Below are positions 7,800 to 26,096 of a stretch of 64,000 bases of DNA, piece by piece. Below the pieces are notes generated by a model that saw nothing but the letters and a program-made list of their open reading frames with translations, made no database searches and was not told where the DNA came from. The DNA lies in the NCBI GenBank assembly GCA_002376545.1, contig DFOH01000041.1:48250-112249 (forward strand), read 5' to 3'. This stretch comes from Firmicutes bacterium UBA3546 (GTDB lineage Bacteria > Bacillota > Clostridia > Tissierellales > Proteiniboraceae). The translations under genes and the position numbers were made by a program. Every line of letters starts with the position of its first letter. Within the stretch, counting starts at the first letter, position 1.

Positions 7800-9581
7800 A
7801 TGAACATGAGATGGAGTTTGAAAGAGCTTTGCCCATCCTTTGAATCAGAAGAATTCAATTCTGATATGGATAAACTCTACAAAAAAGCTGATGAATTTAA
7901 GGAATGGACAGAGATAAACTTTAATTCAAAAGAAAATGCAGTAGAAAAGGCAGAGGAATACATAGAGCGTATGTCTGAATTTGTAACTTTATTTTCAAGA
8001 TTATCTTCATTTGCTCATCTTACAGCAAGTGTAGATGCAAAAAATGAAGAAGCACTTAAGGTTTCAGACAGGTTAAGCATTAAATATTCAGAATTGACAA
8101 AAGCTTTTGTAAGCTATCAAAAATGGATTGGTAGCCTTGAAAACCTTAATGAATTATTCAGCTCATCTGATTTGTTAAAAGAGCATGAATTCATAATAAA
8201 AGACGCCGCAAACAATGCAAAATATCTACTTGGCGAAAAAGAAGAAATTATTATTTCTAAGCTGAGAAACACAGGTTCTACGGCTTGGTCTAATCTTCAA
8301 AATATGGTAACTTCAACCCTTCTAGTAGATATAGAATTAAACGACGAGAAGAAACAGCTGCCATTGCCTGCCATAAGAAACTTGGCATATGAAAAAAATC
8401 CTGAAACAAGAAAAACAGCATATTATGCTGAACTAGAATCTTATAAGAAAATCGAACAATCATCAGCAGCTTGCTTAAATGGAATAAAAGGTGAAGTAAT
8501 AGCTACATCTGGACTTAGAGGGTATTCTTCTCCTTTAGAGGAAACACTATTTAAATCTAGAATGGATAAGGAAACTCTTGATGCTATGCTAACTGCTATG
8601 AAAGAGAGTCTACCTGCTTTCCGTAAGTACTTTAGAAAAAAAGCTGAGCTTCTAGGTCATTCTAATGGACTTCCTTTCTATGATATATTTGCTCCAATGG
8701 GTGAGGTAAATATTACATTTACTTATGAAGAGGCTAAAGACTATATTGTTAAGAATTTTAGAAGCTTTAGTAATGAACTTGCAGATTTTGCTGATAATGC
8801 ATTTGCAAAGAACTGGATTGACGCAGAGCCTAGAGAGGGAAAACGTGGCGGAGCTTTTTGTTCAAATCTTCGTCCAATACAGGAAAGCCGCATAATGTCC
8901 AACTTCAATGGAAGCTTTAGCAATATGACTACTTTAGCTCATGAACTAGGTCATGGATATCATGGACACTGCCTAAAAAATCAACCCATTTTAAATTGCA
9001 GCTATCCTATGCCTTTAGCAGAGACTGCCTCTATTTTCTGCGAAACTATAGTTGTTAATGCTGCATTAAAAGAAGCGTCACAAGAAGAAGCCTTTGGAAT
9101 ACTAGAATCTTCTATTTCTGATGCAGGTCAGGTTATTGTAGATATATTGAGCCGTTATATATTTGAAACTAATCTATTTGAAAAGAGAAAAGACAGTGCG
9201 CTATCTGTAAAGGAATTTAAGGAATTAATGATAAATGCACAAAAAGAAGCTTACGGCGATGGATTAGATCCTGAGTACTTACATCCTTATATGTGGATTA
9301 ACAAGACACACTATTATTCTGCTGGAAGAAACTTCTACAACTTCCCATATGCATTTGGACTATTATTTGCCAAGGGAATTTATGCAGAATATCTAAAACG
9401 TGGCAATGACTTTGTTCCTGAATATAATAAGCTTTTAGTAGCTACAGGAAGAAATAATATTGCAGATGTGACTAATATGGTTGGTATAGATGTGCGCTCA
9501 GTAGATTTCTGGAGAAGCTCATTGGAGCTTGTTAAACAGGATATTGAGAAATTTATTGAATTGGCAGATACAATGAAATAG
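7800..9581 (+). CDS. pepF: Oligoendopeptidase F (M3B metallopeptidase)
   Basis: HELGHGYH zinc motif and M3 family length. Start MNMRWS is preceded by GGGGTGA; the track's upstream extension lacks an RBS. Confidence 0.8.
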   Translation: MNMRWSLKELCPSFESEEFNSDMDKLYKKADEFKEWTEINFNSKENAVEKAEEYIERMSEFVTLFSRLSSFAHLTASVDAKNEEALKVSDRLSIKYSELTKAFVSYQKWIGSLENLNELFSSSDLLKEHEFIIKDAANNAKYLLGEKEEIIISKLRNTGSTAWSNLQNMVTSTLLVDIELNDEKKQLPLPAIRNLAYEKNPETRKTAYYAELESYKKIEQSSAACLNGIKGEVIATSGLRGYSSPLEETLFKSRMDKETLDAMLTAMKESLPAFRKYFRKKAELLGHSNGLPFYDIFAPMGEVNITFTYEEAKDYIVKNFRSFSNELADFADNAFAKNWIDAEPREGKRGGAFCSNLRPIQESRIMSNFNGSFSNMTTLAHELGHGYHGHCLKNQPILNCSYPMPLAETASIFCETIVVNAALKEASQEEAFGILESSISDAGQVIVDILSRYIFETNLFEKRKDSALSVKEFKELMINAQKEAYGDGLDPEYLHPYMWINKTHYYSAGRNFYNFPYAFGLLFAKGIYAEYLKRGNDFVPEYNKLLVATGRNNIADVTNMVGIDVRSVDFWRSSLELVKQDIEKFIELADTMK

Positions 9582-9582: not shown

Positions 9583-9620
9583 AAATTCCCCTGCCTTGTA
9601 AAATAAGGTGGGGAATTTTT
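9583..9620. terminator. Rho-independent terminator (bidirectional)
   Basis: aaattcccc...ggggaattttttaagcttttt hairpin between the convergent pepF and GGDEF genes. Confidence 0.65.
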
Positions 9621-11116
9621 TAAGCTTTTTTCTTATGCAAAAGCTTCTCTTTATACATCTGCCTGTCTGCATTATCAATAATTTGCTCTAAATCAAACTT
9701 CATGCCCGATTTAAAATGAAACAGACCATGACTAGCTGTTATAGGATAAGGCAGACTGCTTAGCTTATTTGTTCTGTCAAAGCTTTGTAGAAGCCTTCTC
9801 CATAGATTTTCGACTTCGTGCATAGTTTTATTCATAAATACTATAATAAATTCGTCTCCTCCCATTCGGAAAAACATATCATCCTCATGTATTTCTTGTA
9901 TTATTAATCTACAAAAGGTTTTAATATAATTATCCCCTTCTAAATGTCCATAAGTATCGTTAACAATCTTTAAATCATTTATATCAATGAAACAGAGAAC
10001 AAATTCCATATATTTATTTTTAGATTCATTTATCAGCTCTTGTATTATTTTCATACCCATTCTTCTATTAAGAATGCCCGTAAGCATATCTGTAGAAGCA
10101 TATTTTGAAAGCTCCTCTTCAATTTTTCTTTTTTCTGTAATATCCATTATGCCAGTTAATATACACTCTTCTCCCTGATAATCAACTAGTTCATGATTAG
10201 AACATACCCATCTGTTTTTTCCTTTAACATTGTATTCGACAATGCGATTATGAATACTCTTATTCCTCTTTAATTCTCTGATAATATCAATCCTATTTTC
10301 TTTTCTTACATATATAGCATTTATGTTAAAGTCTTCTAATTCATCTTGGCTTAATCCTATGAAGCTACAAGCCTGTTCGCTAGCTTTTATAACCTTTCCA
10401 TCTTTTAGCCTTGTAATAAAAACTGGGAATGGATTTATATAAAACAGTCTTTTAAAATTTTCCTCACTTTCCTGAAGCCTTCTCTTGTTTATAAAATCGC
10501 TCATCATAAATCTATAAAAAGAAAAAGAGAGCAGTAAAGCTATACCAAAAATAGCTGTAGAGTTAATTTGCTTTGCTGCAAGTACATACTTATCATCGTT
10601 CAGTATGCCAATGCCCACTAAAAAAATTATGTGATTTACTCCGAATATAAATAACATATACAATGGTTTTATAGTAAATGCAACCGCAGTAACAAGTACC
10701 ATAATTATATAGGAATTTATATTGCCAGTAAGTTTTTGACTATTTATTGAGGAAAGTGTACCGACAAGAACATATAAGAAAGCATACACTCTTGGAGTTA
10801 CAGCTGTTATATTAAACTTATCCCAAGCATCTCTTTTCGAAATCTGCTTATAGAATATTAAATACAAAATAGATGCAACTACACTTGTTACGTGTAAAGA
10901 CATTATAGTTATCTTATAAATCTTATCTGTTATATTCTTAATTACTATTAAATCAAAATATAAAAAAGGCACAGCCATGCAGATTGCGGCAATGGAAATG
11001 GTTCTTATTCTGCTTAGTACTAATAGATTATTATACTGCTCAAAGTCTATATAAATTTTATCTGCTTTCTTACTTGTATTTATGAAAAATTTAAAGCTAT
11101 CTTTTATCCATCTCAT
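9620..11116 (-). CDS. Membrane-anchored PAS-GGDEF diguanylate cyclase
   Basis: About 8 predicted TM helices at the N-terminus, then a PAS-like region and a GGDEF domain (RMGGDEFIIVF). Start MRWIKDSF has RBS AAGGAA and a TATAAT just upstream. Confidence 0.75.
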   Translation of the reverse strand: MRWIKDSFKFFINTSKKADKIYIDFEQYNNLLVLSRIRTISIAAICMAVPFLYFDLIVIKNITDKIYKITIMSLHVTSVVASILYLIFYKQISKRDAWDKFNITAVTPRVYAFLYVLVGTLSSINSQKLTGNINSYIIMVLVTAVAFTIKPLYMLFIFGVNHIIFLVGIGILNDDKYVLAAKQINSTAIFGIALLLSFSFYRFMMSDFINKRRLQESEENFKRLFYINPFPVFITRLKDGKVIKASEQACSFIGLSQDELEDFNINAIYVRKENRIDIIRELKRNKSIHNRIVEYNVKGKNRWVCSNHELVDYQGEECILTGIMDITEKRKIEEELSKYASTDMLTGILNRRMGMKIIQELINESKNKYMEFVLCFIDINDLKIVNDTYGHLEGDNYIKTFCRLIIQEIHEDDMFFRMGGDEFIIVFMNKTMHEVENLWRRLLQSFDRTNKLSSLPYPITASHGLFHFKSGMKFDLEQIIDNADRQMYKEKLLHKKKA

Positions 11117-11357: not shown

Positions 11358-11410
11358 CTAGTTAAACAGCCTTAGCTTGATGTATCAAGCTAAGGCTGTT
11401 TAAGGTTTTT
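11358..11410 (+). terminator. Orphan strong hairpin with T-run (plus-strand orientation)
   Basis: aaacagccttagcttgat-gt-atcaagctaaggctgttt followed by aaggttttt. No ORF of 60 aa or more lies upstream on the plus strand. Confidence 0.45.
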
Positions 11411-11444
11411 CACTATAAACTTAACAAGGTGCTATTAAAGTTTT

Positions 11445-11507
11445 TTATTCTACTCCTGCTATTAATAATATTATTGAGCATAGGCTTGCAAAATTGCTTA
11501 TTTTCTA
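11445..11507 (-). pseudogene. Decayed 3' remnant of a pmbA/tldE paralog
   Basis: Minus-strand translation ...*KISNFASLCSIILLIAGVE* matches the C-terminus KINNFSGPKSIKLLNISIAGVE* of the intact PmbA at 26097. The 22 nt ttttttattctactcctgctat are identical in both places, with stop codons just upstream. Confidence 0.55.
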
Positions 11508-11603
11508 AGTTTTTTAATATCAAATACGTACTTAATATCCTGCTTATAAGCAAATTCTTTTATACTTCTTTTTATTCACTACAGATTTATAAGTCATGAA
11601 ATT

Positions 11604-12863
11604 CTATTTTAAATATTCTACTATTCTGATAAGAGTATCATCACTACCAAAGCCGCCTGCTTTTGTAATTATTTGAACATTATACTTATTGCTAAGTATA
11701 TCTGATGCAACTACCCCTAAAAAAATCTCATTTTGTGGTACAATTCCATTGCACCCTAGTGCTTTTATAATTCCAAAGGCAGTATCTCCTCCAAAAATTA
11801 CTAAATGCCCTATAGTTGTCTTATCTAATACCTGTTTTACCATTTTTCCAATGTTTTCTGCTATCAATAAATGTGCTTTTTTGGGATTTATATTTAACTT
11901 TACTGAATAATCTAGACATTCTTTCACCTGACTTCTATCCTCAGCTGTCTTTATAATAATCTTGTCACCTTTATTAATCTTAGAGACAATATCATGTATG
12001 AAAGCCTCTCCCTCACTACTATTAAAATAGTCATGAGCTAGCAACTGTTTTGGTGTAAGAATTATACTTTTATATCCAAGCTTTTCTGAATACTTTACTT
12101 GGTTGATTGATGCTGTATTGACACTACCTGAGATGATTAAGCTACTCAATTCATATTGCTTAGTTTCTGCTTTGTCTCTTTTTAGCTCTAAAATTTCAGT
12201 CAATATTCCCGCAAACCCTGCACATCCCGCGGTTAACTTTAGCTTTTTTCTTTCCTTAAGCACTTTTCCTATTTTCATTAAATCCAAATCATTCTGAGCA
12301 TCAAAAACATAAATTGCCTGTTTATCTTCCTTTAGCTGGAATGTCTCGTAATCCTTTTGCTTTATTGTCACTACTTCAATATTTGACTGGGAATTAATAA
12401 TCTCCGCAATACTACTGTGTTTAGTAGGTTCAAAAGGGTCATTTGCATATGCAGTTTTATTTAATGGTTTTCCATCTACATAATGCTGACCATTTATTGT
12501 AGTTCGATTTGCCTTTGGAAATGATGGTATGAAGAATAATTCATTGCTGTTACATGCCTTGATTGCGCCAGCAAGCTCACTTCCTATATTACCTCTCAAG
12601 GTTGAATCTGTTTTCTTATAAATATACTTAATTCCATATTCCTTCGCTTTGTCTACAACCTTTTTAACTTTTAAAAATGCCTCAAAAGAATTTATATGCC
12701 TAGTTTCAATATCTAAAACAACTACTTGGATTTTTTCATCTAATAATTCATATTTAATATTTTCATCAGTACTTACAATCGTCGGGATATCTTTTTTTGA
12801 GAATTGAACCCCAGTGTCAAGCGCCCCAGTAAAATCATCTGCTATTACAAGTAGCTTAACCAT
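11604..12863 (-). CDS. DUF1537 four-carbon acid-sugar kinase family protein (OtnK/DtnK-like)
   Basis: N-terminus MVKLLVIADDFTGALDTGVQF is typical of the YgbK/OtnK family. RBS GAGGTGA. It is the last gene of the operon. Confidence 0.7.
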   Translation of the reverse strand: MVKLLVIADDFTGALDTGVQFSKKDIPTIVSTDENIKYELLDEKIQVVVLDIETRHINSFEAFLKVKKVVDKAKEYGIKYIYKKTDSTLRGNIGSELAGAIKACNSNELFFIPSFPKANRTTINGQHYVDGKPLNKTAYANDPFEPTKHSSIAEIINSQSNIEVVTIKQKDYETFQLKEDKQAIYVFDAQNDLDLMKIGKVLKERKKLKLTAGCAGFAGILTEILELKRDKAETKQYELSSLIISGSVNTASINQVKYSEKLGYKSIILTPKQLLAHDYFNSSEGEAFIHDIVSKINKGDKIIIKTAEDRSQVKECLDYSVKLNINPKKAHLLIAENIGKMVKQVLDKTTIGHLVIFGGDTAFGIIKALGCNGIVPQNEIFLGVVASDILSNKYNVQIITKAGGFGSDDTLIRIVEYLK

Positions 12864-12923
12864 TATGTCACCTCTCTTACATTGATAGGCACTCTTAATC
12901 TAAATCCACCATCATAAAAATTA

Positions 12924-13958
12924 TTAATCTACATCAATTATTATCTTTCCAGCATCGCCACTTTGCGCAAGCTGAATTGCCTCTTCTACTTTTTCTAATT
13001 TGAAGTGATGAGTAATTACTTTCTCTGGAGTCACCATTCCTGACCTAATAATCTCGTCAGCAGCATACCAGCTTTTATACATATGTCTTCCTGTAATTCC
13101 GTAAATTCTTGCTTCTTTATATATCACATCATTTACTAAATCCAATGAAGTCTTTTTTGAATGCAGTCCAATTAAAGACACCCATCCGCCTTTTCTCAAA
13201 GCTTTCAATCCAGAGTTTAAGGCAGCTTCACTTCCTGTAAGCTCTATTATGGCTCCTGCCCCCAATCCATTTGTTTTGCTAAGTACAATTTCCTCTAAAT
13301 TGTCAGTATTAGTATTTATTGTGTAGTCCGCACCCATTTGTCTAGCCATTCTTAGTCTAGGTTCATTTCTGTCAACAGCAAATACCTGTGAGGCTCCAAA
13401 TGCTTTTGCTACTTCTGTAGCAAAACATCCTATTGGTCCACATCCTAAGACTACTACTGGAACACCAGCCACTTGCTCAGCTTGTAAAGCATGTACCGCA
13501 ATGCCAAAAGGCTCATATATGGCTCCTATTGACGGATCTGTTGATTCGTCCAATTTCCATGCGCATGCTTCTGGCAGTACTGTATATTCAGCAAAAGCCC
13601 CATCAGTATGGACACCTATTATCTTCATATTATTGCATACATGCTGATTACCTGTTCTACATTGAAAGCAAATACCACAAGGTATGTGAGTCTCTGCACA
13701 CACCAAATCTCCTACTTTGAAGTTCTTAACTAAATTACCTACTTCAACAACTTCTCCACAATACTCATGCCCTATTACCATTGGATTCTTAGCTCCTACA
13801 TTCTCGCACCATTCATTCCAATGATAAAGATGTATATCAGTACCACAAATAGCAGCAGACTTAACTTTTACTAACATTTCATCAGGCTTAATTTTGGGTA
13901 CATCTATGTCTTTAAGAACTACTCCCTTACTTCTGTTAACTTTCATAATGGCTTTCAT
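12924..13958 (-). CDS. Zn-dependent medium-chain alcohol dehydrogenase, L-threonine 3-dehydrogenase-like
   Basis: MKAIMKV...ICGTDIHLY..GHEYCGEV..GCGPIG motifs. Start is preceded by GGAGGG; the track's upstream extension overlaps the pdxA stop. Confidence 0.7.
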   Translation of the reverse strand: MKAIMKVNRSKGVVLKDIDVPKIKPDEMLVKVKSAAICGTDIHLYHWNEWCENVGAKNPMVIGHEYCGEVVEVGNLVKNFKVGDLVCAETHIPCGICFQCRTGNQHVCNNMKIIGVHTDGAFAEYTVLPEACAWKLDESTDPSIGAIYEPFGIAVHALQAEQVAGVPVVVLGCGPIGCFATEVAKAFGASQVFAVDRNEPRLRMARQMGADYTINTNTDNLEEIVLSKTNGLGAGAIIELTGSEAALNSGLKALRKGGWVSLIGLHSKKTSLDLVNDVIYKEARIYGITGRHMYKSWYAADEIIRSGMVTPEKVITHHFKLEKVEEAIQLAQSGDAGKIIIDVD

Positions 13959-13974
13959 GTAATTGCCCTCCATT

Positions 13975-15012
13975 CTACCTTCTATTTTTAGCAAGCTTAG
14001 CTCCATAATCAATTGCATTTAACATGCTTTCGGCATTTGCTGTTCCTTTACCAGCTTTTCCAAAAGCAGTACCATGGTCTACAGATGTTCTTATAATTGG
14101 TAATCCAAGAGTTATATTGACTCCACTTACGGATTCCCACTTATTTTTTTCTTCGTCCCAATTAAATCCTACCACTTTGAGAGGTATGTGTCCTTGATCA
14201 TGATACATAGCAACGACGATATCATATTGTCCTCCCTTTGCTTTAGAAAATAATGTATCTGGAGGAACAGGTCCATCTACATTCATTCCTAGCCTAGTTG
14301 CTTCATTTATAGCTGGTTTTATCTCCTTTTCTTCTTCCCAACCAAACATTCCACTTTCCCCTGCATGAGGATTTAATCCCGCAACCCCTATTCTTGGATT
14401 ATCTATTCCAAATCCTCTCATTGTATCATAAGCTAATTCAATAACCTCTAATACTCTATCCTTTTTAACATTATCACATGCTTGTCTTAGTGAAACATGA
14501 GTAGATACATGAACAACTCTCAAATTTCCATCGGCAAGCATCATGGTATAATTCTTTGTTTTTGTGAAATTAGCATATATTTCAGTATGTCCATTATAAT
14601 GATACCCTGCTAAATTTAGTGCTTCCTTATTTAAAGGTCCAGTTACTGTCCCATCTACTTCTCCCGCCATTGCAAGGTCTATTGCCTTTTTTACAGCATC
14701 AAATGCTGCTTTCCCAGACATAGCTTGTACCTCTCCATGCTTTAATTGGTTAATATCCACATCCTTCAAATCTATTACATCGATTGCTCCATGTTCAAAT
14801 TTAGCATCTCTTACTTCATAGATAGGTCTAACTTTTAAGTTTAATCTGGCTATATGATTCACCGCATGCTCAATAATTTTTGCATCTCCTATTATCAGAG
14901 GTCTGCAAATATTATATATGCTTTCTTCTCCCAATGCTTTTACAGCTATCTCAGGCCCTATTCCTGAAGGATCTCCCATTGTAATTGCAAGTATAGGCAG
15001 TTGAACTTTCAT
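13975..15012 (-). CDS. pdxA: PdxA-family NAD-dependent 4-hydroxythreonate-4-phosphate dehydrogenase-like oxidative decarboxylase
   Basis: MKVQLPILAITMGDPSGIGPEI...AMYHDQGHIPLK with conserved His ligands. RBS GGAGGG. Confidence 0.75.
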   Translation of the reverse strand: MKVQLPILAITMGDPSGIGPEIAVKALGEESIYNICRPLIIGDAKIIEHAVNHIARLNLKVRPIYEVRDAKFEHGAIDVIDLKDVDINQLKHGEVQAMSGKAAFDAVKKAIDLAMAGEVDGTVTGPLNKEALNLAGYHYNGHTEIYANFTKTKNYTMMLADGNLRVVHVSTHVSLRQACDNVKKDRVLEVIELAYDTMRGFGIDNPRIGVAGLNPHAGESGMFGWEEEKEIKPAINEATRLGMNVDGPVPPDTLFSKAKGGQYDIVVAMYHDQGHIPLKVVGFNWDEEKNKWESVSGVNITLGLPIIRTSVDHGTAFGKAGKGTANAESMLNAIDYGAKLAKNRR

Positions 15013-15013
15013 G

Positions 15014-15679
15014 CTAACCCTCCAATTCTAATACATGTTTTAATTGTTCTACCCCAGAACGAGGGCTAGTAAGCACAGGTATTTTTATATGATTAAGATA
15101 TGGTAACAATATAGCCATGCTACCTTGAGCAAGTACGATAACATCGCTATTTTTAGCTACCTCTTCTATAGCCCCTAGTACCATTCTATTATGCTTCTCT
15201 CTATCTCCTTCTTCCATAAGCACTCTTATGGCACCATCTACTAGTACTTTATTAATGTCAACTTTTTTGTCTAATTCAGCAGCAGTCCTTTCAATAAGCC
15301 TCACACTAGGGTCAAGTGTAGTAGCTACTGTGCCAATTACAGATATTCTTCTCCCAATTTTCACTGCTTCTCTAGCCATAGGTTCATCAATCTTCAAATA
15401 TGGAATCGTCAACATATTTCTAGCTACATCTACAGCTTCTCCTACAGATGAGCATTGATTTAAAATAATGTGTGCACCCATTTCCTCAGCTTGTATAGCA
15501 TATATACATATTCTTTTAATAACAGACTCTGTAAGCCCTCCAGACCTCATAACATCTTCTAAGAGGCTGTCATCTATAATATTTATCATTTCAACTTCAG
15601 GTACTATTTCTTTAAATAATTCTTTTAAATCCATTACAGTAAGTAAATTTGTATGAATTACAGCAACCTTTTTTTTCAA
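15014..15679 (-). CDS. Asp/Glu/hydantoin racemase superfamily protein
   Basis: About 220 aa (KKVAVIHT...LNQCSSVG...VLAQGSMA). Probable TTG start after AAAGGTG. The longer track ORF overlaps the upstream gene. Confidence 0.5.
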   Translation of the reverse strand: MKKKVAVIHTNLLTVMDLKELFKEIVPEVEMINIIDDSLLEDVMRSGGLTESVIKRICIYAIQAEEMGAHIILNQCSSVGEAVDVARNMLTIPYLKIDEPMAREAVKIGRRISVIGTVATTLDPSVRLIERTAAELDKKVDINKVLVDGAIRVLMEEGDREKHNRMVLGAIEEVAKNSDVIVLAQGSMAILLPYLNHIKIPVLTSPRSGVEQLKHVLELEG

Positions 15680-15713
15680 TTTTCTCACACCTTTCTTTAA
15701 ACTTGTTTTGGAA

Positions 15714-16808
15714 CTAATAAGAGCCTCTCGCTGCAATCTCCCAGATACCTTCAATTTTTCCTTTCCTGACTACATAAATTTGATTATATAAGTTAGTAGT
15801 AGTGCAGCAATGGCTTGGCACTAGATGTACCTTATCACCTACTGCTAGTCCTATATATGGAGTTAATGCACGACATTTTGCATGCTCCTCAGCTAGCTTT
15901 ACTACCTCAACATTTTCTACTCCTTTGATTTTTGGAACCTCTCTCTCAGGTGATATGGATTTCATTCCTGTATTTAAAATAACTGTTTCATCATCAGGAG
16001 TGCTTACTACAGAAGCAAGAACTGTAAGAGATTGTTCAAAAGGTAATCCTACCTTTTCATAAGTTAAGTCCATGAAAATATATGAACCAGCCTGAATCTC
16101 CGTAATTCCTGGATATTCTCCAGCTATATCAAAGGTTCCGCTTCCAGCTCCACTTACTATTTCTACAGGCACTCCAGCCTTTCTTATAGCCTCAGCAGTA
16201 TCAACAAGATACTTATTAGCTTTTCTGCCTGTCTCTTGTCTTTCATGTCTATCTTTTATGAATACTGCATGTCCTTCATAGCCCATGATTCCAAGGAAAT
16301 TTATATTTTTTAGAGAATTTGCAAGCTTTGCTAGCTCAACTGCTGCTTCAGTGCTTCTTGCGCCACATCTTCCCATTCCTACATCAATCTCAATTATTAC
16401 TCCCAAGTCAACCCCAATTTCAAAGGATGCTTCTGATAATTTCTTTAAATTTTCAGTATCATCTACTGCAACCATCATATTAGCATATCGCGCTAAGCTA
16501 ACTAGACGTCTTATTTTATCTTCGTCCTTCACTTCATTGGCAATTAATATATTATCAAGACCTGAATTTACCATAACTTCTGCTTCACTTATGGTTGCAC
16601 AGCAGAGTCCTATTGCTCCTGATTTTATTTGTTGATGTGCTATCATAGGTGTTTTATGCGTTTTCGTGTGTGGTCTTAAACTTACTCCTTGTTTTAATAA
16701 ATATTGCATCATCTTCTTCATATTACTTTCAAATATATCAGCATCCAACACTAATGCTGGAGTTGGTATCAAATCTTGCGATAATCCTATAAGATAAGAA
16801 TTGTTCAT
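15714..16808 (-). CDS. DSD1-like fold-type III PLP enzyme (D-serine dehydratase-like / D-threonine aldolase family)
   Basis: RPHTKTHKTP PLP-lysine motif with an alanine-racemase-N-like domain. Start MNNSYL is preceded by GGAGGT. Confidence 0.65.
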   Translation of the reverse strand: MNNSYLIGLSQDLIPTPALVLDADIFESNMKKMMQYLLKQGVSLRPHTKTHKTPMIAHQQIKSGAIGLCCATISEAEVMVNSGLDNILIANEVKDEDKIRRLVSLARYANMMVAVDDTENLKKLSEASFEIGVDLGVIIEIDVGMGRCGARSTEAAVELAKLANSLKNINFLGIMGYEGHAVFIKDRHERQETGRKANKYLVDTAEAIRKAGVPVEIVSGAGSGTFDIAGEYPGITEIQAGSYIFMDLTYEKVGLPFEQSLTVLASVVSTPDDETVILNTGMKSISPEREVPKIKGVENVEVVKLAEEHAKCRALTPYIGLAVGDKVHLVPSHCCTTTNLYNQIYVVRKGKIEGIWEIAARGSY

Positions 16809-16826
16809 TTTTATATACCTCCGCAT

Positions 16827-18248
16827 TTATATTCTAGGACGTCCTCCATAGAACCATCCTGATTCAAGGTCTACCACCTTTGCCTTAAGTCCACGCTTCT
16901 TAACAGCATTAACTCCTAGTTCAGTTGTTAATACTGTAGTGCCTTTTCCTAACACCACTCCATCTAACATTATGATATTTCCTGAACATACTGCACCGTA
17001 TGCTCTTCCGCTTGTTCCATCAAGTATTGTAATATCTGCATCTGCACCAACTCCAAGATGTCCTTTATCTTTAAGACCAAAAATTTTAGCAGGATTAATA
17101 CTTGTCTTTGTTACAAACTCTTCCCATGTAAGCATATCCATTCTTACAAGAGCTGTTCCTTTCTCTACAATGAAATTTCTTGGAATAGAGCCACCATCAG
17201 TTGATATTGCATCTACTATGAATCTGCCAGATTTAGCTTTTTGTGTTGCTAGCAAAAATCTAGTCGATGCAGGCGTAACAGGAAAAGTGCATGTTACATC
17301 TGTTCCTTCCTTATCAAAATATTCTATCCCTTCCTTACCTGTAAGTCTTAAATTGTCGTTTCCAACATGACATACCACCGACGCCCATCCATCTAGTATA
17401 GCCTGTCTAAGACCTTTCTCTGTTCCTTCATATCCTCCCATGCTTAAAGAATTTTTAACTCCATTAGATTCAGGCATTCCATCAGAACACTTAGCTGGTG
17501 TTCCACTAAATACAGAAAGATATGATTCACTGAAAATATTTGGATTATCCTCTAAAATTCTCAGTGCCTCCAATGTTTCTTCAATGGGATCACCTAATAC
17601 TTGTCCACGACAATAAGAATTTACATGTACTAGGTCCATAGAAAATCCCTTAGCTATATCTACAGCATCCTTAAAGCTATTAAAATTCCCAACTCCATTT
17701 TTTGTAGTTCCTACATGAAAGGCTACATATGCTTTTTTATGATTTGCAACTTCTACTACTCTTTGTGTTGCCTCTGGAGTCATAGGATAGTGACCACCTA
17801 ATAGCTTCATACCAATTGCTCCTTCATCCAAGCTTTTATCAATAAGCTCACTTATCTCTGTTTTTGTTGGAGCTATTCCACTAATGTTCCAACCTGGTCT
17901 TATCATCTGTAAACAAATCATATTCATTCCAGTACCATTATTGATAGAAAAATCATAGAATTCGTGAAGTGGACCTCCACAATCCATTGCAGTAACTGTT
18001 CCTGCTCTTGCTAGCATACTCATAGCAGCTTGTCCGCCTTTGCCCGTAAAGCCAGTATGTACATGCATGTCTATGATTCCTGGAACAATAGTCTTTCCCT
18101 TAGCATCGAGTACTTTTATGCCCTTATTAGTATTTATTTCTTCAGCAACCTCAACCACTTTGCCTCCATCAATCCCAATATCTCTTTGACCATGTATTTT
18201 ATTTTCCGGGTCTATAACAGTTCCATTTTTTATTATTAAATCGAACAT
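16827..18248 (-). CDS. Metal-dependent amidohydrolase family protein
   Basis: N-terminal ...GIIDMHVHTGF (HxH metal motif), 473 aa. RBS AGGAGG. Confidence 0.65.
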   Translation of the reverse strand: MFDLIIKNGTVIDPENKIHGQRDIGIDGGKVVEVAEEINTNKGIKVLDAKGKTIVPGIIDMHVHTGFTGKGGQAAMSMLARAGTVTAMDCGGPLHEFYDFSINNGTGMNMICLQMIRPGWNISGIAPTKTEISELIDKSLDEGAIGMKLLGGHYPMTPEATQRVVEVANHKKAYVAFHVGTTKNGVGNFNSFKDAVDIAKGFSMDLVHVNSYCRGQVLGDPIEETLEALRILEDNPNIFSESYLSVFSGTPAKCSDGMPESNGVKNSLSMGGYEGTEKGLRQAILDGWASVVCHVGNDNLRLTGKEGIEYFDKEGTDVTCTFPVTPASTRFLLATQKAKSGRFIVDAISTDGGSIPRNFIVEKGTALVRMDMLTWEEFVTKTSINPAKIFGLKDKGHLGVGADADITILDGTSGRAYGAVCSGNIIMLDGVVLGKGTTVLTTELGVNAVKKRGLKAKVVDLESGWFYGGRPRI

Positions 18249-18276
18249 TTAGTAACCTCCTTTCATCGCCAATTCC

Positions 18277-19404
18277 TCAATCCAAGTCTCCATTAAAAGC
18301 TTTAACATAGATTGATTTTATGCTATCCTTACTTAAATCAATTGGATTATTTTTAAGAAGTCTTTCTTGCATCATGGCCTCTTCTAAAACAATGTCAATA
18401 TCCTCCTCTGGAATATTAGCGTCTTTTAGTCTGTAAGGAACATTTATCTTTCTAAATCCATCTATAATAGGATTTATTAAACCTCTTATATCAGAAACCT
18501 CAATAGCTTTTTTCAGAGTATTTACTTTTTCAACTTTTAAAGAATCAAGATACAACATAACATAGGGATACAGCATTGCTACTCCTTGGCTATGTGAAAT
18601 TCCGTATTTAGCCAATGGATAGGCAAGAGCATGTACACTGCACGTACCTGCATTTGTTAATGCTGCACCGCCAAGTAATGAACCTAATGCCATATCTTGT
18701 CTAGCTACTAGATTATCGCCATTATCAATAGCTGCATGTAGAGATTTATATATAAGTTTGGTACCTTTAATTGCCAATTCATCTGACCACAAGGAGCCAT
18801 TCTTAGATAAAAAGGATTCTACACAATGTGCTAATGCATCTATCCCTGTCAATGCAGTAAGTTTTGGTGGAAGAGTAATCATTAGTTCTGGGTCGACTAT
18901 AGCTATTTCTGGTATCATATGTCTGCTTACTACTGCTTTTTTATTTTTTTCTTTATCGAGGAAAATAGCATTTGGAGTAGCTTCAGAACCGGTGCCACTT
19001 GTTGTAGGTATCATAATCATTGGGATACCATGTTTGGAAAAGCTAATATTACTTAAATCGTTTATTTTTGTACATCCATTTCCCTTTACCCAAGCTACTA
19101 ATTTTGCAGTATCTAATACACTTCCACCACCAAGTCCTATACATATGTCTGCGTCGAATCCTTCGGCTAATTTTAAGCATTCATTAACAACCTCAATATC
19201 TGGTTCTCCTTTAAATGAGGAAAAAGTCAATACTTCTAGCCCTATAGATGTTAATTTAGTTTCTAAGTGTGCTCTAAAAGGTCTATCACTTAAAAGCAGT
19301 ACTCTTTCAGCATTCATTTGCTCGATTTCCGTACAAACTTGATTATACGCTCCTGCTCCAAAAATTACTCTGCCTGGAGTATTTAAGCTTATTAAATTAT
19401 CCAC
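18277..19404 (-). CDS. Iron-containing (group III) alcohol dehydrogenase
   Basis: GGGSVLDTAK motif and conserved His residues. GTG start after GGGGGT. Confidence 0.7.
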   Translation of the reverse strand: MDNLISLNTPGRVIFGAGAYNQVCTEIEQMNAERVLLLSDRPFRAHLETKLTSIGLEVLTFSSFKGEPDIEVVNECLKLAEGFDADICIGLGGGSVLDTAKLVAWVKGNGCTKINDLSNISFSKHGIPMIMIPTTSGTGSEATPNAIFLDKEKNKKAVVSRHMIPEIAIVDPELMITLPPKLTALTGIDALAHCVESFLSKNGSLWSDELAIKGTKLIYKSLHAAIDNGDNLVARQDMALGSLLGGAALTNAGTCSVHALAYPLAKYGISHSQGVAMLYPYVMLYLDSLKVEKVNTLKKAIEVSDIRGLINPIIDGFRKINVPYRLKDANIPEEDIDIVLEEAMMQERLLKNNPIDLSKDSIKSIYVKAFNGDLD

Positions 19405-19461
19405 AACTTTACCCCCTTGTTTTTTATGTTATTATCATATGTATTATTTCTCTACTTTCTA

Positions 19462-20961
19462 TTAGCTAAGTGGTTCAGCTTTTTTCTTATTCGCATTAAT
19501 TTGATTCTTAATAAGCGGCCAAACTATAGTTAATACTGCTATAAGTAAAAAAGCTAATGAAACAGGACGTGTTAGAAATGGTAAAAAGCTTCCATCTGAA
19601 TAAGTTAAACCACGTCTTAAATTGACTTCTACCATAGGTCCTAATATAAAACCTAAAATCATAGGGCTTATGGAGATTTTTGCAATTTCAAGTATTATAC
19701 CTACTGCTGCGAATATAAGCATAATCCAGATATTAAATGTAGAATTGTTACTTGCAAAGGCTCCAATGAAGCTCATGACCATTAACGCAGGGTATAGATA
19801 ATGATATGGCACCTTTAATAGCCTCGGGAATAATCTCATACCCCCAAATTGAAGTATTAATGTTAAAATAGCAGATAATGCTGCTGCTGCAAATACTATA
19901 TAAACTACTGATGGATTGTTTACAAATAGTAGTGGTCCTGGTTGAATACCATGTATCATTAGTCCCCCAAGAAGAATTGCAGTTACACTGTCTCCAGGTA
20001 TCCCCATAGTAACCATAGGTATTATTGCACCACCAACTGATGCGTTATTTGATACCTCGCTTGCCCAAACTCCATCTACGCATCCCTTTCCAAATTCTTC
20101 TGGACTCTTAGATGCTTGTTTTGCCTGACCATATGCAACCATGTTTGATAGTCCACTTCCCATGCCAGGTAAAAAACCAATCCATAATCCAATCATAAAT
20201 GAACGAATAATATTCCAGCCATTACTTATGACTTCTTTCATTGTAATTCCAAAGCCAGAAACTTTTAATGATACATCGGGTTGCTGCTGTTGGCCTGTAC
20301 CAAAATCCTTTACAATTTGTTTTATGGCAAATATACCAAGTATCATGGCCAATATGTCTATACCACCACTAAGCATAACATTTCCAAATATAAATCTTGG
20401 ACCTCCGTCAATAGGAGCCATCCCAACTGAGCTTAGTCCTATACCAATAAAAGCACCTGCAAGTCCTCGGAACATATCTCCTTTAGATAAAACAGCTACA
20501 AGCACTAAGGCGCAAGTACATAGAGAAAAGAATTCCCATGGTCCAAGCTTTAATGCAACTTCTGCGATAAATGGACTTAATATTGCTGCAATAATAACAC
20601 TTAAAAATGTACCTATAAATGATGCTACTATACCTGTTCCAAGTGCTTTAACTGCCTGACCTTTTTTAGTCATTGGGTAAGCATCAAAGCATGTAGCAAT
20701 TGATGATGGAGTTCCTGGAATACCAATTAGTGTAGCTGAAATAAATCCACCTGACACTCCTCCTATCCAAATACCTACTAAAAGAGCCATACCCATTTCT
20801 GGAGACATTCCAAATGTTAAAGGTAATAACAAGGAAACCCCTGTAACTGCTGTCAAGCCAGGTATTGCCCCAAATATTATTCCTACTATAGTACCAAATA
20901 GAAGCAATAAAAAGGTTACTGGCTGGAGTAACTGTCCTATACTTGAAATAATATAATCCAT
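19462..20961 (-). CDS. tctA: Tripartite tricarboxylate transporter large permease
   Basis: 499-aa polytopic membrane protein with TctA-family sequence, downstream of tctC and tctB. Confidence 0.75.
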   Translation of the reverse strand: MDYIISSIGQLLQPVTFLLLLFGTIVGIIFGAIPGLTAVTGVSLLLPLTFGMSPEMGMALLVGIWIGGVSGGFISATLIGIPGTPSSIATCFDAYPMTKKGQAVKALGTGIVASFIGTFLSVIIAAILSPFIAEVALKLGPWEFFSLCTCALVLVAVLSKGDMFRGLAGAFIGIGLSSVGMAPIDGGPRFIFGNVMLSGGIDILAMILGIFAIKQIVKDFGTGQQQQPDVSLKVSGFGITMKEVISNGWNIIRSFMIGLWIGFLPGMGSGLSNMVAYGQAKQASKSPEEFGKGCVDGVWASEVSNNASVGGAIIPMVTMGIPGDSVTAILLGGLMIHGIQPGPLLFVNNPSVVYIVFAAAALSAILTLILQFGGMRLFPRLLKVPYHYLYPALMVMSFIGAFASNNSTFNIWIMLIFAAVGIILEIAKISISPMILGFILGPMVEVNLRRGLTYSDGSFLPFLTRPVSLAFLLIAVLTIVWPLIKNQINANKKKAEPLS

Positions 20962-20981
20962 TTTTTCCCCTCCTTAAGTCT

Positions 20982-21428
20982 TTAGAATAATTTTCCTGAT
21001 GGTAACATCACCAGTAACACCTTTTCGAAAATTAAATATACCGAGCCTGTAATACATAATGAAAATATTATTGCTGTCTTATAAATCTTCATATTTCCAT
21101 TCATGACAATTATTGAAGCAAATACTGCAATAGGTGTAGCAATTAAGAACCCAAGTGTTACAAGTCCTATAGCGTATAATAATATTACACCTGACATTAT
21201 ACACAGGCGTTTCCAGCCCTCTGGAGTTAAATATACCTTTGCCTTCTCTGCTGTCTTTTCAAGCATTAACCCTATTCCACATATTATCAACCCAATACCA
21301 GAGATATATGGAAATAATCTAGGCCCTACATCATTTTCAAGATTAGGGTTAGGAATCTGGCTAGCTAGTATTGTAATTATAATTCCTATGATTAATAACA
21401 TGATTCCTGTTTTTTTGTTACTGCTCAT
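20982..21428 (-). CDS. tctB: Tripartite tricarboxylate transporter small permease
   Basis: About 148-aa 4-TM protein between tctC and tctA. Start MSSNKK is preceded by GGAGTGA. Confidence 0.6.
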   Translation of the reverse strand: MSSNKKTGIMLLIIGIIITILASQIPNPNLENDVGPRLFPYISGIGLIICGIGLMLEKTAEKAKVYLTPEGWKRLCIMSGVILLYAIGLVTLGFLIATPIAVFASIIVMNGNMKIYKTAIIFSLCITGSVYLIFEKVLLVMLPSGKLF

Positions 21429-21509
21429 ATTATCACTCCATTTCATTTATTATTTATATATTAGAATCAACTCTTAATAGAGTTGATTCTAATATATTTA
21501 ATAGCACTG

Positions 21510-22523
21510 CTATTTCTTTAATCCTAAATTTTCTGCAACAGCTTCTATAGAATTAAATTCTGCTTCTAAATATGCTTCAGTTTCTTCTAAATCTCTATAT
21601 TTATAGCTTTGTCCAATATTGTTAAGTTTGTCCATAAAATCTTTATCAGCTTCCATTTCTGCAAAAAGTCCATTTATTTTTTTAGCTATTTCATCAGGTA
21701 GTCCTTTTGGAGCATACATAGCATGCATAGTCGGGAGAATTACGTTATAGCCTTGCTCGACTGCCGTTGGAAAATCAGGTGCTAATATATCTCTTTCTTC
21801 TGAAGCTACTGCGAGAACCTTTACTTTATTAGCTTCTACATATTGTGAAGCAGCTCCTACTGTTGCTTGGATAAGATCTAGATGACCGCCTTGAAGTGAA
21901 GCTAACTTTTCTGCTTCTCCACCTGAGTCAACCATTTTAAATTCTACGCCTGCCTCATTCATCAATATACCTGCGATAAATTGACTAACTCCACCATACT
22001 GAACACCAAATATATATTTGTTAGGATTTTGTTTTGCATCTTGAACTAGTTCTTCTAAAGTATTCCATGGAGCATCTGCTCTCACTGATATTGTTTGACT
22101 TACATGTGGCATTGTAGCAATTGGTCTAAAATCTTTGTATGAATAAGCATATGTTCCACCGTGATAATTGCATTGTAAAAGTGTGTGATGGAAAAGAATT
22201 GTGTAGCCATCTGGTTCAGCATTTCTTACGGTTTCTGCTCCTACTGAACCTCCACCACCATCTTGGTTAACCACAACTACAGGTTGTCCTAATTTTCCTT
22301 GCATATATTGTGCAACTAAACGAGCAGCAGCATCTGTAGCCCCCCCTGCTTTTGTAACGCATATAAGCTGAATTGGCTTTGTAGGATAATTAACTTCAGA
22401 ATTTGAAGCATTATCATTGACTCCTTCAGAATCATTGTTTGTAACAGGCTGATTTGATGAGCATGCTGTAATTGAAATACCTAATAATGCAATTGCTAAA
22501 AATAAAGCTAATTTCTTTTTCAT
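21510..22523 (-). CDS. tctC: TctC/Bug-family tripartite transporter substrate-binding lipoprotein
   Basis: Lipoprotein signal ...LLGISITACSS and Bug-family length. Confidence 0.7.
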   Translation of the reverse strand: MKKKLALFLAIALLGISITACSSNQPVTNNDSEGVNDNASNSEVNYPTKPIQLICVTKAGGATDAAARLVAQYMQGKLGQPVVVVNQDGGGGSVGAETVRNAEPDGYTILFHHTLLQCNYHGGTYAYSYKDFRPIATMPHVSQTISVRADAPWNTLEELVQDAKQNPNKYIFGVQYGGVSQFIAGILMNEAGVEFKMVDSGGEAEKLASLQGGHLDLIQATVGAASQYVEANKVKVLAVASEERDILAPDFPTAVEQGYNVILPTMHAMYAPKGLPDEIAKKINGLFAEMEADKDFMDKLNNIGQSYKYRDLEETEAYLEAEFNSIEAVAENLGLKK

Positions 22524-22618
22524 TCTTTAACCCCCCATTTTTTATATAAAATTTAAACAAAAGAAAACTATTAGAGAAAATTAAATATCCATACCTCCTT
22601 TTCGTTTGATAATAACAT

Positions 22619-23671
22619 TTATCTAGAATAAACAGAGCACCTATTAAGTGTCTCAGTATTCACTAGTTTAGAAGCTATGTCTATAGCTTTTTCAAGAACT
22701 TTTGTGTCACCTGTTTTTTTTGCAATCCTATTGATTGTAGATTCATGACTGACTGCTAATCCAATCATTGAGCCTCCTAAAGCTATTTCTATTTCATTAA
22801 TTGAGTTCCACCTATTACTTTTATCATCAAACTCGAAGCCAATAGCTTCCATCTGAATATTGCTCCTTTCATGATACATATCCACTATTGCATCATATTC
22901 TCCTGATGCAGCTTTTAAATAGATACTATCTGGTGAAATAGGCCCATATGCAAGAATTCCTTCTCTATAGGATGCTTCAATGGCACTTAATATTTCATCA
23001 CTGATATTAGTGTCCTTATATTCTCCAGAATAAAATATATCTGCTACAGCGACTCTAGGTGCATCTATATTCATTTTTTTTAAGATTTCATTTGTAAGCT
23101 TAATCATTTCATGTATTCGATTTTGAGTTATATTTTTAAATACAGAATCACTAAAGCTCTCAAAATAAACATATGCAATTCTAAGAGAACCTCTTATTAT
23201 CATTACAGAATAAACATCTGACTCTTCATCGTTCAGGAAAACCTTTTCAATTCCTCTATGAAAACTACATAACAATTTATTATTATAATTATTACTTGCA
23301 GGTCCAAGAATAAATGCATCAAGGCTTTTATTAGCACATAATTCAATAGCCTTTCTGCCATAAGTTAAACTCATCTCGTCAGAACTCGTATTATCATCAT
23401 TATTAAAATAGTCCTTTGAAGAATCCATGTTTATATCTATTAGATTAAGTACTCCTTCTTTAAAACACGCTTCAGAAGGCTCCTTAATTGTATTCAATAT
23501 CAAAGATGAGCCAGTAAAGTTCAATGCATTTATAACTATATCTAAGCTTCCTATAACTACGAATCCTAAATCCATGTAAAGAGATGCTTTTTCCATAGCT
23601 TTAACTACTATCTGTGCACCAGCTCCCAGAGAATCTCCTATTGTAATTCCAATTATTTTTCTGCCCACCAA
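22619..23671 (-). CDS. Divergent PdxA-family paralog lacking canonical metal-binding histidines
   Basis: GITIGDSLGAGAQI aligns with PdxA GDPSGIGPEI, and DMYHERSNIQME aligns with AMYHDQGHIPLK. Two of the three His-ligand positions are replaced. Probable TTG start 6 nt after AAGGAGTG. It is the first gene after the sigma-54 promoter. Confidence 0.6.
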   Translation of the reverse strand: MVGRKIIGITIGDSLGAGAQIVVKAMEKASLYMDLGFVVIGSLDIVINALNFTGSSLILNTIKEPSEACFKEGVLNLIDINMDSSKDYFNNDDNTSSDEMSLTYGRKAIELCANKSLDAFILGPASNNYNNKLLCSFHRGIEKVFLNDEESDVYSVMIIRGSLRIAYVYFESFSDSVFKNITQNRIHEMIKLTNEILKKMNIDAPRVAVADIFYSGEYKDTNISDEILSAIEASYREGILAYGPISPDSIYLKAASGEYDAIVDMYHERSNIQMEAIGFEFDDKSNRWNSINEIEIALGGSMIGLAVSHESTINRIAKKTGDTKVLEKAIDIASKLVNTETLNRCSVYSR

Positions 23672-23728
23672 TGTAAGCACTCCTTTTTTAATCAAATTAG
23701 TTAATGTATAGAGTTACTTATTTTATAT

Positions 23729-23744
23729 GCGAAAACTATGCCAA
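23729..23744 (-). promoter_or_regulatory. Candidate sigma-54 (-24/-12) promoter
   Basis: Minus-strand TTGGCATAGTTTTCGC has GG-N10-GC spacing. TGGCAT matches TGGCAC and TTCGC matches TTGCA. It lies about 45 nt upstream of the first operon gene and downstream of the enhancer-binding-protein gene. Confidence 0.55.
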
Positions 23745-23823
23745 AATTAAATAACCGTAAAAAAGTCATGTAATCGCTATATTTCAACAAAAAATATCTG
23801 ATAGCATGTGGAATATCCTTCCC

Positions 23824-23847
23824 ATGCGTTCCATTATTGAAACGCAT
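23824..23847. promoter_or_regulatory. Inverted repeat, candidate enhancer (UAS) site
   Basis: ATGCGTT-N10-AACGCAT about 90 bp upstream of the sigma-54 promoter. Confidence 0.35.
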
Positions 23848-26090: not shown

Positions 26091-26096
26091 AATTTT

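What the first reader, a model, noticed from the sequence alone, without database searches (positions are those of the whole stretch)
11358..11520. Relic 3' end of a second pmbA/tldE gene at the distal edge of the catabolic island
Directly after the last island gene, the minus strand encodes ...KISNFASLCSIILLIAGVE* with in-frame stops just upstream. The intact PmbA 14.6 kb away ends KINNFSGPKSIKLLNISIAGVE*. The final 22 nt, including the stop and T-run, are identical. The island (11604-25825) is therefore bracketed by an intact pmbA 3' end on one side and a decayed pmbA 3' end on the other. This looks like a footprint of insertion or rearrangement at the 3' end of tldE, or a deleted second tldD/E pair.
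Basis: seen in the sequence. Interest (0 to 1): 0.55.

Follow-up and report, generated by a model that had tools for sequence, protein, structure and literature searches.

The report
Decayed pmbA tail beside inserted operon
A dead 75-base copy of the end of the pmbA/tldE gene sits behind a 14-kb catabolic operon, an ordinary scar of DNA insertion next to pmbA in one Proteiniborus lineage.

Summary
The 22-mer at 11441-11462 recurs exactly at 26093-26114, the end of intact pmbA. The 53 nt upstream are 67% identical and significant when anchored to it. The minus strand reads KISNFASLCSIILLIAGVE*.

The fragment is non-coding. It has an in-frame TAG, indels, no GP motif and substitutions spread evenly over codon positions. 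It matches this genome's own pmbA end best.

Seven Proteiniborus-clade relatives put pmbA next to convergent pepF. In six only a conserved hairpin separates them; the seventh has a different 3-kb insert. The window is nested in that clade and keeps the hairpin beside intact pmbA. So about 16.5 kb (operon, relic and GGDEF gene) is lineage-specific. The relic marks the seam between the operon and the GGDEF gene, not the outer edge of the insertion.

I found no integrase, no further tldD/tldE remains and no Rfam match.

Best reading: a functionless scar of the rearrangement that placed the operon beside pmbA. It arose either by duplication of the pmbA end or by displacement of a resident end. The exact route cannot be resolved, because no intermediate genomes were found in the collections searched.

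The second tldD/E pair idea is not supported. Interest is low.

The parts
11441..11515 (-). Relic: a decayed, non-coding copy of the last ~25 codons of pmbA/tldE, its stop codon (11445-11447) and the six A's after it. An in-frame TAG lies at 11505-11507. Relative to pmbA there is a 2-nt deletion and a 9-10-nt deletion.
11441..11462 (-). Distal copy of the exact 22-nt repeat ATAGCAGGAGTAGAATAAAAAA (minus-strand reading).
26093..26114 (-). Proximal copy of the exact 22-nt repeat: the last five codons of intact pmbA, the stop codon and part of the A-run.
26097..27407 (-). Intact pmbA/tldE (436 aa; Pfam PmbA_TldD_3rd). It overlaps tldD (27407-28837) by one base.
26048..26088 (-). Hairpin A (AACACCGT...ACGGTGTT), orthologous to the bidirectional terminator that separates pmbA from pepF in six relatives (a similar hairpin follows pmbA in L001, where a 3-kb insert lies before pepF). 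Here it is still attached to intact pmbA.
26032..26051 (-). Perfect tandem duplication TGTTTTTTAT x2, at the junction between the ancestral hairpin and the lineage-specific DNA.
   Evidence: read from the sequence
11604..25825 (-). Twelve-gene catabolic operon, in order: PrpR-type sigma-54 activator, PdxA-like, TctC, TctB, TctA, Fe-ADH, amidohydrolase, D-Ser-dehydratase-like, Asp/Glu racemase, PdxA, Zn-ADH, DUF1537 four-carbon-acid kinase. No integrase or transposase.
11362..11403 (+). Hairpin B: perfect 19-bp stem with a 4-nt loop. Its T-run lies on the + strand only. One same-species contig carries a compensatory A-T to G-C change at 11366/11399.
11407..11424 (-). Weak third collinear block (18/20 with two 1-nt gaps) matching 25994-26013. 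That target lies beyond hairpin A on the pmbA side. The similarity is suggestive only.
9620..11116 (-). PAS/GGDEF diguanylate cyclase gene. It is also absent from this site in all relatives, and its nearest homologues (71%, 68%, 60%) lie in unrelated contexts.
9589..9613 (+). Hairpin C, a bidirectional terminator shared by GGDEF and pepF. The lineage-specific DNA ends at the pepF stop codon (9579-9581).
7800..9581 (+). pepF (oligoendopeptidase F, M3 family), the ancestral convergent neighbour of pmbA.

Best explanation
The relic is a functionless pseudogene fragment. It is a direct-repeat copy of this lineage's own pmbA 3' end: about 25 codons, the stop codon and six A's.

It arose as a by-product of the rearrangement that placed the 14-kb operon between pmbA's terminator and the already foreign GGDEF module. 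It has since decayed neutrally.

Shown:
- The relic is homologous to the pmbA 3' end.
- It is non-coding.
- The ancestral state was pmbA, then a hairpin, then convergent pepF.
- The ~16.5 kb between them is derived in this lineage and composite.
- The ancestral hairpin was retained next to intact pmbA.
- No recombinase gene is present.

Inferred: the duplication route. I slightly favour a duplication of the resident junction segment (pmbA end, hairpin and a short flank) on either side of the incoming operon. This could be a Campbell-type single crossover of a circular molecule carrying that segment, or a tandem duplication later trimmed by deletion. The hairpin copy in the distal repeat would then have been lost.

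The stated confidence is for this duplication-of-own-allele route. That the relic is an insertion or rearrangement scar of some kind I put at about 0.85.
For: Homology and its significance.

Non-coding state:
- An in-frame TAG, a 2-nt deletion and a 9-10-nt deletion.
- Loss of the GP motif and the N-[VI]-S tripeptide, which are kept in nearly all of the 45 PmbA C-termini inspected, out of 120 homologues retrieved.
- The 18 mismatches in 54 nt fall 6/5/7 on codon positions 1/2/3. I counted these by hand on the alignment.

Origin from this genome's own allele:
- Among 11 pmbA 3' ends the relic scores highest against the window's own (63 against 56 for the next).
- It shares the post-stop AAAAAA with the window's copy. 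All seven relatives differ there.

Synteny:
- Relatives L011, L016, L018, L021, L024 and L028/L029 have pmbA, a conserved hairpin and then convergent pepF.
- The window is nested in that clade, sister to L024.
- The window keeps the same hairpin next to pmbA.

Composite nature of the insert:
- GGDEF homologues lie in other contexts.
- The operon homologue L015 lies beside pcrA-ligA and carries no pmbA fragment.

Weak support for duplication of the flank beyond the hairpin: 17/3000 shuffles and 0.4% of genome decoys reach the observed score.

No RNA family matches. No fold stands out other than hairpin B.
Against: - The distal repeat lacks hairpin A, so an extra deletion has to be assumed.
- The flank similarity beyond the hairpin was tested post hoc and is weak.
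- The 22-mer has 0 mismatches, while the adjacent 54 nt have 18. If the mismatches were spread evenly, the chance of this is (54/76)^18, about 0.002, for that partition. Uniform neutral decay does not explain it. A short gene-conversion patch, a crossover at that block, or some constraint has to be invoked.
- No genome with an intermediate state was found. The nearest PmbA is 84% identical, the nearest kinase 63% and the nearest GGDEF protein 71%. The order of events is therefore untested.
- The source of the circular or duplicated intermediate is unknown.
Confidence: 0.5

Rival explanations
1. Displacement by homology-facilitated illegitimate recombination (HFIR). DNA from a congener carried the pmbA 3' part, hairpin A and the operon. 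It recombined homologously within tldD/pmbA. Its far end joined illegitimately about 75 nt before the resident pmbA stop codon. This pushed the resident 3' end, which was then followed by hairpin B and GGDEF, downstream.
For: - The relic is truncated at its 5' end but complete at its 3' end, as this model predicts.
- The intact gene keeps the genus-type hairpin, while the relic is followed by a different one.
- The same logic has been proposed for orphaned 3' regions in T6SS effector-immunity arrays and Rhs loci (PMC5361080).
- HFIR has been demonstrated experimentally in several bacteria (PMC3240628).
- In the last 300 nt of pmbA the nearest relative changes from L024 to L018 (0.88 against 0.83).
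Against: - It needs two unobserved states: a donor with the operon behind hairpin A, and a recipient with GGDEF directly behind pmbA and no hairpin A.
- Under this model the two copies come from different lineages. Yet they share the post-stop AAAAAA, which differs in all seven relatives.
- The mosaic signal along tldD-pmbA is within noise.
- It does not predict the weak flank similarity beyond hairpin A.
Confidence: 0.27
2. The two 22-mers are attL and attR cores of a site-specific integration into the pmbA 3' end. The recombinase has either been lost or acts in trans.
For: - An exact 22-bp direct repeat sits at a gene 3' end and brackets a 14.6-kb accessory block.
- The same intergenic site carries a different insert in L001.
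- The sharp contrast between 100% identity in the core and 67% outside it fits a crossover core.
Against: - No integrase, recombinase or transposase domain is found in any of the 13 genes, and the intergenic gaps are at most 460 nt.
- The similarity continues outside the core, possibly on both sides. attL/attR arms are not expected to resemble each other.
- The L001 insert has no repeat of the pmbA end.
- The ancestral hairpin lies between the core and the operon.
- The GGDEF gene beyond the distal repeat is also non-ancestral.
- A scan of viral contigs for the conserved 18-mer gave only one hit that looks like a chance match.
Confidence: 0.05
3. The relic is the last remnant of a second, paralogous tldD/tldE pair that once lay downstream and was deleted.
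For: Only the presence of a pmbA-like 3' end.
Against: - tblastn with TldD and PmbA finds no other fragment in the window.
- The relic is closest to this genome's own pmbA end, not to a divergent paralogue.
- Seven relatives have a single tldD/pmbA pair, and in six pepF follows directly.
- The operon homologue elsewhere (L015) has no tldD/E neighbour.
Confidence: 0.03
4. The relic, or at least its 22-mer, is retained because it has a function. It might be part of the operon's 3' UTR or a protein-binding site shared with the pmbA end.
For: - The 22-mer is perfectly conserved next to 33% divergence.
- The relic is invariant in three same-species samples.
- The neighbouring hairpin B shows a compensatory change.
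Against: - No Rfam match.
- The relic forms no notable structure of its own.
- Hairpin B has a T-run only for the opposite strand.
- The same-species samples are almost identical everywhere, so invariance carries no information.
- The relic contains no ORF or start codon.
Confidence: 0.05
5. Chance similarity of two AT-rich stretches.
For: The genome is 34% G+C. The upstream block taken alone and unanchored is only marginal (49/2000).
Against: - None of 100 shuffles gave two copies of the 22-mer.
- None of 1000 shuffles reached the alignment score.
- The anchored upstream block is exceeded by 10 of 2000 shuffles.
- The match is in frame and ends at the stop codon.
Confidence: 0.01

Closest known systems
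Orphaned 3' gene regions left by successive displacement at T6SS effector-immunity, Rhs and CDI loci (the HFIR model; PMC5361080)
   Same: A conserved upstream gene serves as an anchor. Incoming DNA supplies a new 3' end. A truncated older 3' end is shifted downstream and persists as a relic at the seam between acquired modules.
   Different: In those systems the 3' ends are variable toxin domains with linked immunity genes, and the orphans can be functional or selected. Here the 3' end is a conserved housekeeping-type peptidase tail with no associated cargo logic. The relic is dead, and it resembles the resident allele rather than a different variant.
Direct repeats made by Campbell-type single-crossover integration or by tandem duplication
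   Same: A 5'-truncated copy of the target segment lies at the far end of the inserted DNA. The similarity lies upstream of the identical block and, weakly, downstream of it. No recombinase is needed.
   Different: The distal copy lacks the hairpin that lies inside the proximal copy. The copies are only ~67% identical outside a 22-nt block. The intermediate is hypothetical.
attL/attR repeats of genomic islands and prophages integrated in the 3' ends of tRNA or protein genes
   Same: An exact short direct repeat that includes a gene's 3' end and brackets accessory DNA, with the target gene kept intact.
   Different: There is no integrase. The repeats are separated from the cargo by the ancestral terminator. 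Similarity extends beyond the core. DNA outside the distal repeat is also non-ancestral.

Membership tests
Integrative genomic island or prophage (site-specific integration) | Encodes, or is demonstrably served by, a tyrosine or serine recombinase | tested here: not met
   Pfam hits for all 13 genes between pmbA and pepF show metabolic, transport and regulatory domains only. The HTH_7 hit in the PrpR-type activator is just its C-terminal Fis-type helix-turn-helix.
Integrative genomic island or prophage (site-specific integration) | Exact direct repeats (att core) at both ends of the element | tested here: met
   An exact 22-bp repeat at 11441-11462 and 26093-26114.
Integrative genomic island or prophage (site-specific integration) | The empty site in relatives equals one att core with the flanks joined | tested here: not met
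   In relatives pmbA is joined through a hairpin to pepF. The DNA beyond the distal repeat (hairpin B and GGDEF) is absent there, so removing the operon between the repeats does not restore the ancestral site.
Integrative genomic island or prophage (site-specific integration) | The same attachment sequence is used by related mobile elements | tested here: not met
   The 18-mer scan of viral contigs gave one unrelated hit. The L001 insert at the same site has no repeat.
Pseudogene fragment (decayed partial duplicate of pmbA/tldE) | Significant, collinear homology to the parent gene | tested here: met
Pseudogene fragment (decayed partial duplicate of pmbA/tldE) | Reading frame disrupted and family-invariant residues lost | tested here: met
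   An in-frame TAG, frameshifting and 9-10-nt indels, and loss of the GP and N[VI]S motifs.
Pseudogene fragment (decayed partial duplicate of pmbA/tldE) | A substitution pattern without codon-position bias | tested here: met
   6/5/7 mismatches at codon positions 1/2/3, counted by hand on the alignment. The sample is small (18 changes).
HFIR-type displacement scar | A mosaic ancestry of the anchor gene, with a donor-type 3' part | tested here: inconclusive
   Sliding-window identity along tldD-pmbA shows no clear breakpoint. There is only a small shift in the last 300 nt.
HFIR-type displacement scar | Existence of recipient-type and donor-type arrangements in related genomes | tested here: not met
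   None was found among the relatives retrievable. The nearest relatives are only 84% identical in PmbA, so absence is weak evidence.
Second tldD/tldE operon | Further remnants of tldD or tldE, or a second pair in relatives | tested here: not met

The most novel reading that the evidence does not exclude
The pmbA/pepF terminator region of Proteiniborus may be a recurrent, sequence-directed landing site. The 22-bp pmbA tail would then act as the crossover core for integrase-less cargo modules moved by a recombinase encoded elsewhere. Supporting hints are the operon here, a different 3-kb insert in L001, and MITE-like inserts inside the hairpin in L016 and L021.
Probability: 0.04. Interest if true: 0.45.

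Novelty: new member of a known kind. Interest (0 to 1): 0.15.

Why it matters
It matters mainly for annotation and for reading the history of this locus.
- It shows that the threonate/erythronate-like catabolic operon and the neighbouring GGDEF gene are separate, lineage-specific acquisitions.
- They are stacked in one permissive gap between two convergent housekeeping genes.
- The pmbA-like tail should be annotated as a pseudogene fragment, not as a small ORF.

It opens no new biological question. Gene-end relics at the seams of inserted DNA are a familiar by-product of recombination.

Tried and rejected
1. **pepF 3'-end relics.** I searched beside hairpin A and beside hairpin B and found none.
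2. **Protein-level search for more TldD or PmbA fragments.** I searched the window, the operon homologue L015 and the GGDEF homologue loci and found none.
3. **Does the relic travel with GGDEF or with the operon?** The upstream regions of GGDEF homologues (L012, L013, L026) show no similarity to the relic region. Nor does the downstream region of the kinase homologue L015.
4. **Extension of the relic up to the kinase stop codon.** Not significant. The scattered BLAST hits to the pmbA of L002 and L004 were not reproducible as homology.
5. **A natural PmbA variant ending like the relic.** A pattern search of all 120 homologue C-termini found none.
6. **Rfam scan of 9400-12000.** Only sub-threshold noise.
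7. **Base composition.** The operon (34-38% G+C) does not stand out from its flanks (31-36%).
8. **Recombination breakpoint in pmbA.** Inconclusive.
9. **Viral-contig scan for the conserved 18-mer as an attP.** One hit that looks like a chance match.
10. **Within-species polymorphism.** All same-species contigs (L005-L009) show the same arrangement.

Full report
**1. What is in the sequence**

Read on the minus strand, 11504 down to 11445 gives KISNFASLCSIILLIAGVE*. An in-frame TAG lies immediately upstream at 11505-11507. One search was translated in the wrong frame and was superseded by reading the sequence directly.

Intact pmbA/tldE (26097-27407, minus strand, 436 aa) ends KINNFSGPKSIKLLNISIAGVE*.

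The 22-mer TTTTTTATTCTACTCCTGCTAT occurs exactly twice in the window, at 11441-11462 and 26093-26114. No further site matches within three mismatches, and none of 100 shuffles gave two copies.

**2. Does the similarity go beyond the 22-mer?**

Yes, but not far.

- The local alignment of the two regions scores 48, against 22.5 +/- 3.1 in 1000 dinucleotide shuffles.
- Without the 22-mer the upstream part is only marginal when free to align anywhere (49/2000).
- It is collinear and in register, however. Anchored to the 22-mer, the adjacent 53 nt (36/54 identical) are exceeded by only 10 of 2000 shuffles.
- The next 88 nt, up to the kinase stop codon at 11604, show nothing.

The relic is therefore about 75 nt long (11441-11515). 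It covers the last ~25 codons, the stop codon and six A's.

A third, weaker collinear block (11407-11424 against 25994-26013, 18/20) lies beyond the terminator hairpin on the pmbA side. Its anchored score is reached by 17 of 3000 shuffles and by 0.4% of genome decoys. I found it post hoc, so I treat it as suggestive only.

**3. The relic is dead**

- It has an in-frame stop codon, a 2-nt deletion and a 9-10-nt deletion.
- It lacks the GP motif and the N-[VI]-S tripeptide. These are kept in nearly all of the 45 PmbA C-termini I inspected out of 120 retrieved, and a pattern search of all 120 found no natural variant ending like the relic.
- It contains no start codon.
- Its 18 mismatches fall 6/5/7 on codon positions 1/2/3 (my count on the alignment). 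This is the pattern of neutral decay, not of divergence between working orthologues.
- No Rfam family matches.
- The only strong fold nearby is an unrelated hairpin at 11362-11403.

**4. Whose pmbA end is it?**

Among eleven pmbA 3' ends the relic scores best against the window's own (63; next best 56).

It also shares the post-stop AAAAAA with the window's copy. All seven relatives have a different sequence at that position.

tblastn with TldD and PmbA finds no other fragment in the window. Nothing therefore points to a lost second tldD/tldE pair.

**5. Synteny**

The organism is a Proteiniborus. The nearest named PmbA homologues, about 83% identical, are from Proteiniborus strains.

In six relatives pmbA is followed directly by convergent pepF. 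Only a conserved hairpin (ACACCGT...ACGGTGT) separates them. These relatives are:

- L011
- L016 (strain MB09-C3)
- L018 (strain DW1)
- L021
- L024
- L028/L029

. A seventh relative, L001, carries two unrelated genes at that spot.

In a TldD+PmbA tree the window is nested inside this clade, sister to L024. Adjacency of pmbA and pepF is therefore ancestral.

Everything from the pepF stop codon (9581) to just past hairpin A (about 26040), roughly 16.5 kb, is derived in the window's lineage.

The window still has the genus-type hairpin attached to intact pmbA (26048-88). A perfect TGTTTTTTAT tandem duplication follows it, and then the foreign DNA.

**6. The insertion is composite, and the relic sits at its internal seam**

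- The GGDEF gene beyond the relic is absent from this site in all relatives.
- Its nearest homologues (71%, 68% and 60% identical) lie in unrelated neighbourhoods.
- The closest homologue of the operon (kinase 63%, PrpR-type activator 66% identical) lies beside pcrA-ligA-gatCAB in another organism and has no pmbA fragment.
- None of the 13 inserted genes has a recombinase or transposase domain.
- Base composition does not single out the operon.
- All same-species contigs show the same layout.

The operon is indeed absent in relatives. But pmbA is followed by pepF, not by GGDEF.

**7. How it arose**

The robust conclusion is that the relic is a scar of the rearrangement that put the operon next to pmbA. 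Two routes fit.

(a) *Duplication of the resident junction segment* (pmbA end, hairpin, short flank) on either side of the incoming operon. This could happen by a Campbell-type single crossover or by a tandem duplication trimmed by deletion. The hairpin in the distal copy would have been lost afterwards.

- In favour: the match to this genome's own allele, the shared post-stop A6, and the weak similarity beyond the hairpin.

(b) *Homology-facilitated illegitimate recombination.* DNA from a congener, anchored in tldD/pmbA, brings a new 3' end, the hairpin and the operon, and shifts the resident 3' end downstream. The same has been proposed for orphaned 3' regions at T6SS and Rhs loci (PMC5361080). 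HFIR itself is experimentally documented (PMC3240628).

- In favour: the relic's 5' truncation and the different hairpin behind it.
- Against: it needs two unobserved intermediate genomes. The mosaic signal in pmbA is within noise.

I put (a) at about 0.5 and (b) at about 0.27.

A site-specific att reading is weak (about 0.05). There is no integrase, removing the DNA between the repeats does not restore the ancestral site, and a viral-contig scan gave only one hit that looks like a chance match.

**8. What remains unexplained**

The 22-mer has no mismatch, while the adjacent 54 nt have 18. If the mismatches were spread evenly, the chance of this is about 0.002 for that partition.

A short gene-conversion patch, a crossover located in that block, or some constraint could explain it. 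None of these could be tested.

**9. Verdict**

- The insertion-footprint interpretation is partly supported, with three corrections: the position is an internal seam, the ancestral neighbour is pepF, and the ancestral terminator is retained.
- The second tldD/E pair reading is not supported.
- This is an ordinary pseudogene-fragment scar of a known kind, and interest is low.

Noticed in passing
window 32914-33586 (minus strand); also L005 1-856, L021 4185-4873, L022 and L023: A tandem array of small ORFs (35-45 aa here; 30-41 aa as called in relatives), several of which share a motif like LYE(Y/S)(L/Y)(R/K)(L/I)E(F/S)KK. The array lies directly upstream of a 1030-aa protein with an N-terminal GNAT domain, an amidohydrolase, tldD and pmbA. 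This could be a RiPP-like cluster in which TldD/TldE act as the processing peptidase.
   Followed up: partly
L016 about 11353-11445; L021 about 11350-11440: In two relatives the loop of the genus-wide pmbA/pepF hairpin carries a ~90-nt palindromic insert (GTCATTCTGAGCG.AAGCGAAGGATCTC ... GAGATTCTTC.GC...CAGAATGAC). It looks like a MITE or REP-type element.
   Followed up: no
window 11366 and 11399 (hairpin B, 11362-11403); L008: Across the 524 nt around the relic, one same-species contig differs from the window at only two positions. These are the two partners of a single base pair in the 19-bp stem (A-T to G-C). This suggests either selection on the hairpin or quasi-palindrome correction. The hairpin has a T-run only for the + strand.
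   Followed up: partly
window 26032-26051: A perfect tandem duplication TGTTTTTTAT x2 lies exactly where homology to the relatives' hairpin region ends and the lineage-specific DNA begins. It may be a junction footprint or simple slippage.
   Followed up: no
L001 11303-14413: A relative carries a different ~3-kb insert at the same pmbA/pepF site: a 417-aa gene and a 495-aa repeat-rich gene. It has no repeat of the pmbA end, so this convergent gap has taken up DNA more than once.
   Followed up: partly
window 11604-25825; L015 1-13964: The operon combines a DUF1537 four-carbon-acid kinase and two PdxA-like dehydrogenases with a D-Ser-dehydratase-like PLP enzyme, an amidohydrolase, an Asp/Glu racemase, TctABC and a PrpR-type sigma-54 activator. 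A homologue (kinase 63%, activator 66% identical), with an added aldehyde:ferredoxin oxidoreductase, sits next to pcrA-ligA-gatCAB in another organism. The substrate is unknown.
   Followed up: no
L006 about 25829-25873 in window coordinates: One same-species contig shows a run of mismatches just upstream of the PrpR-type gene start, consistent with a small indel. The operon's proximal flank therefore varies within the species.
   Followed up: no
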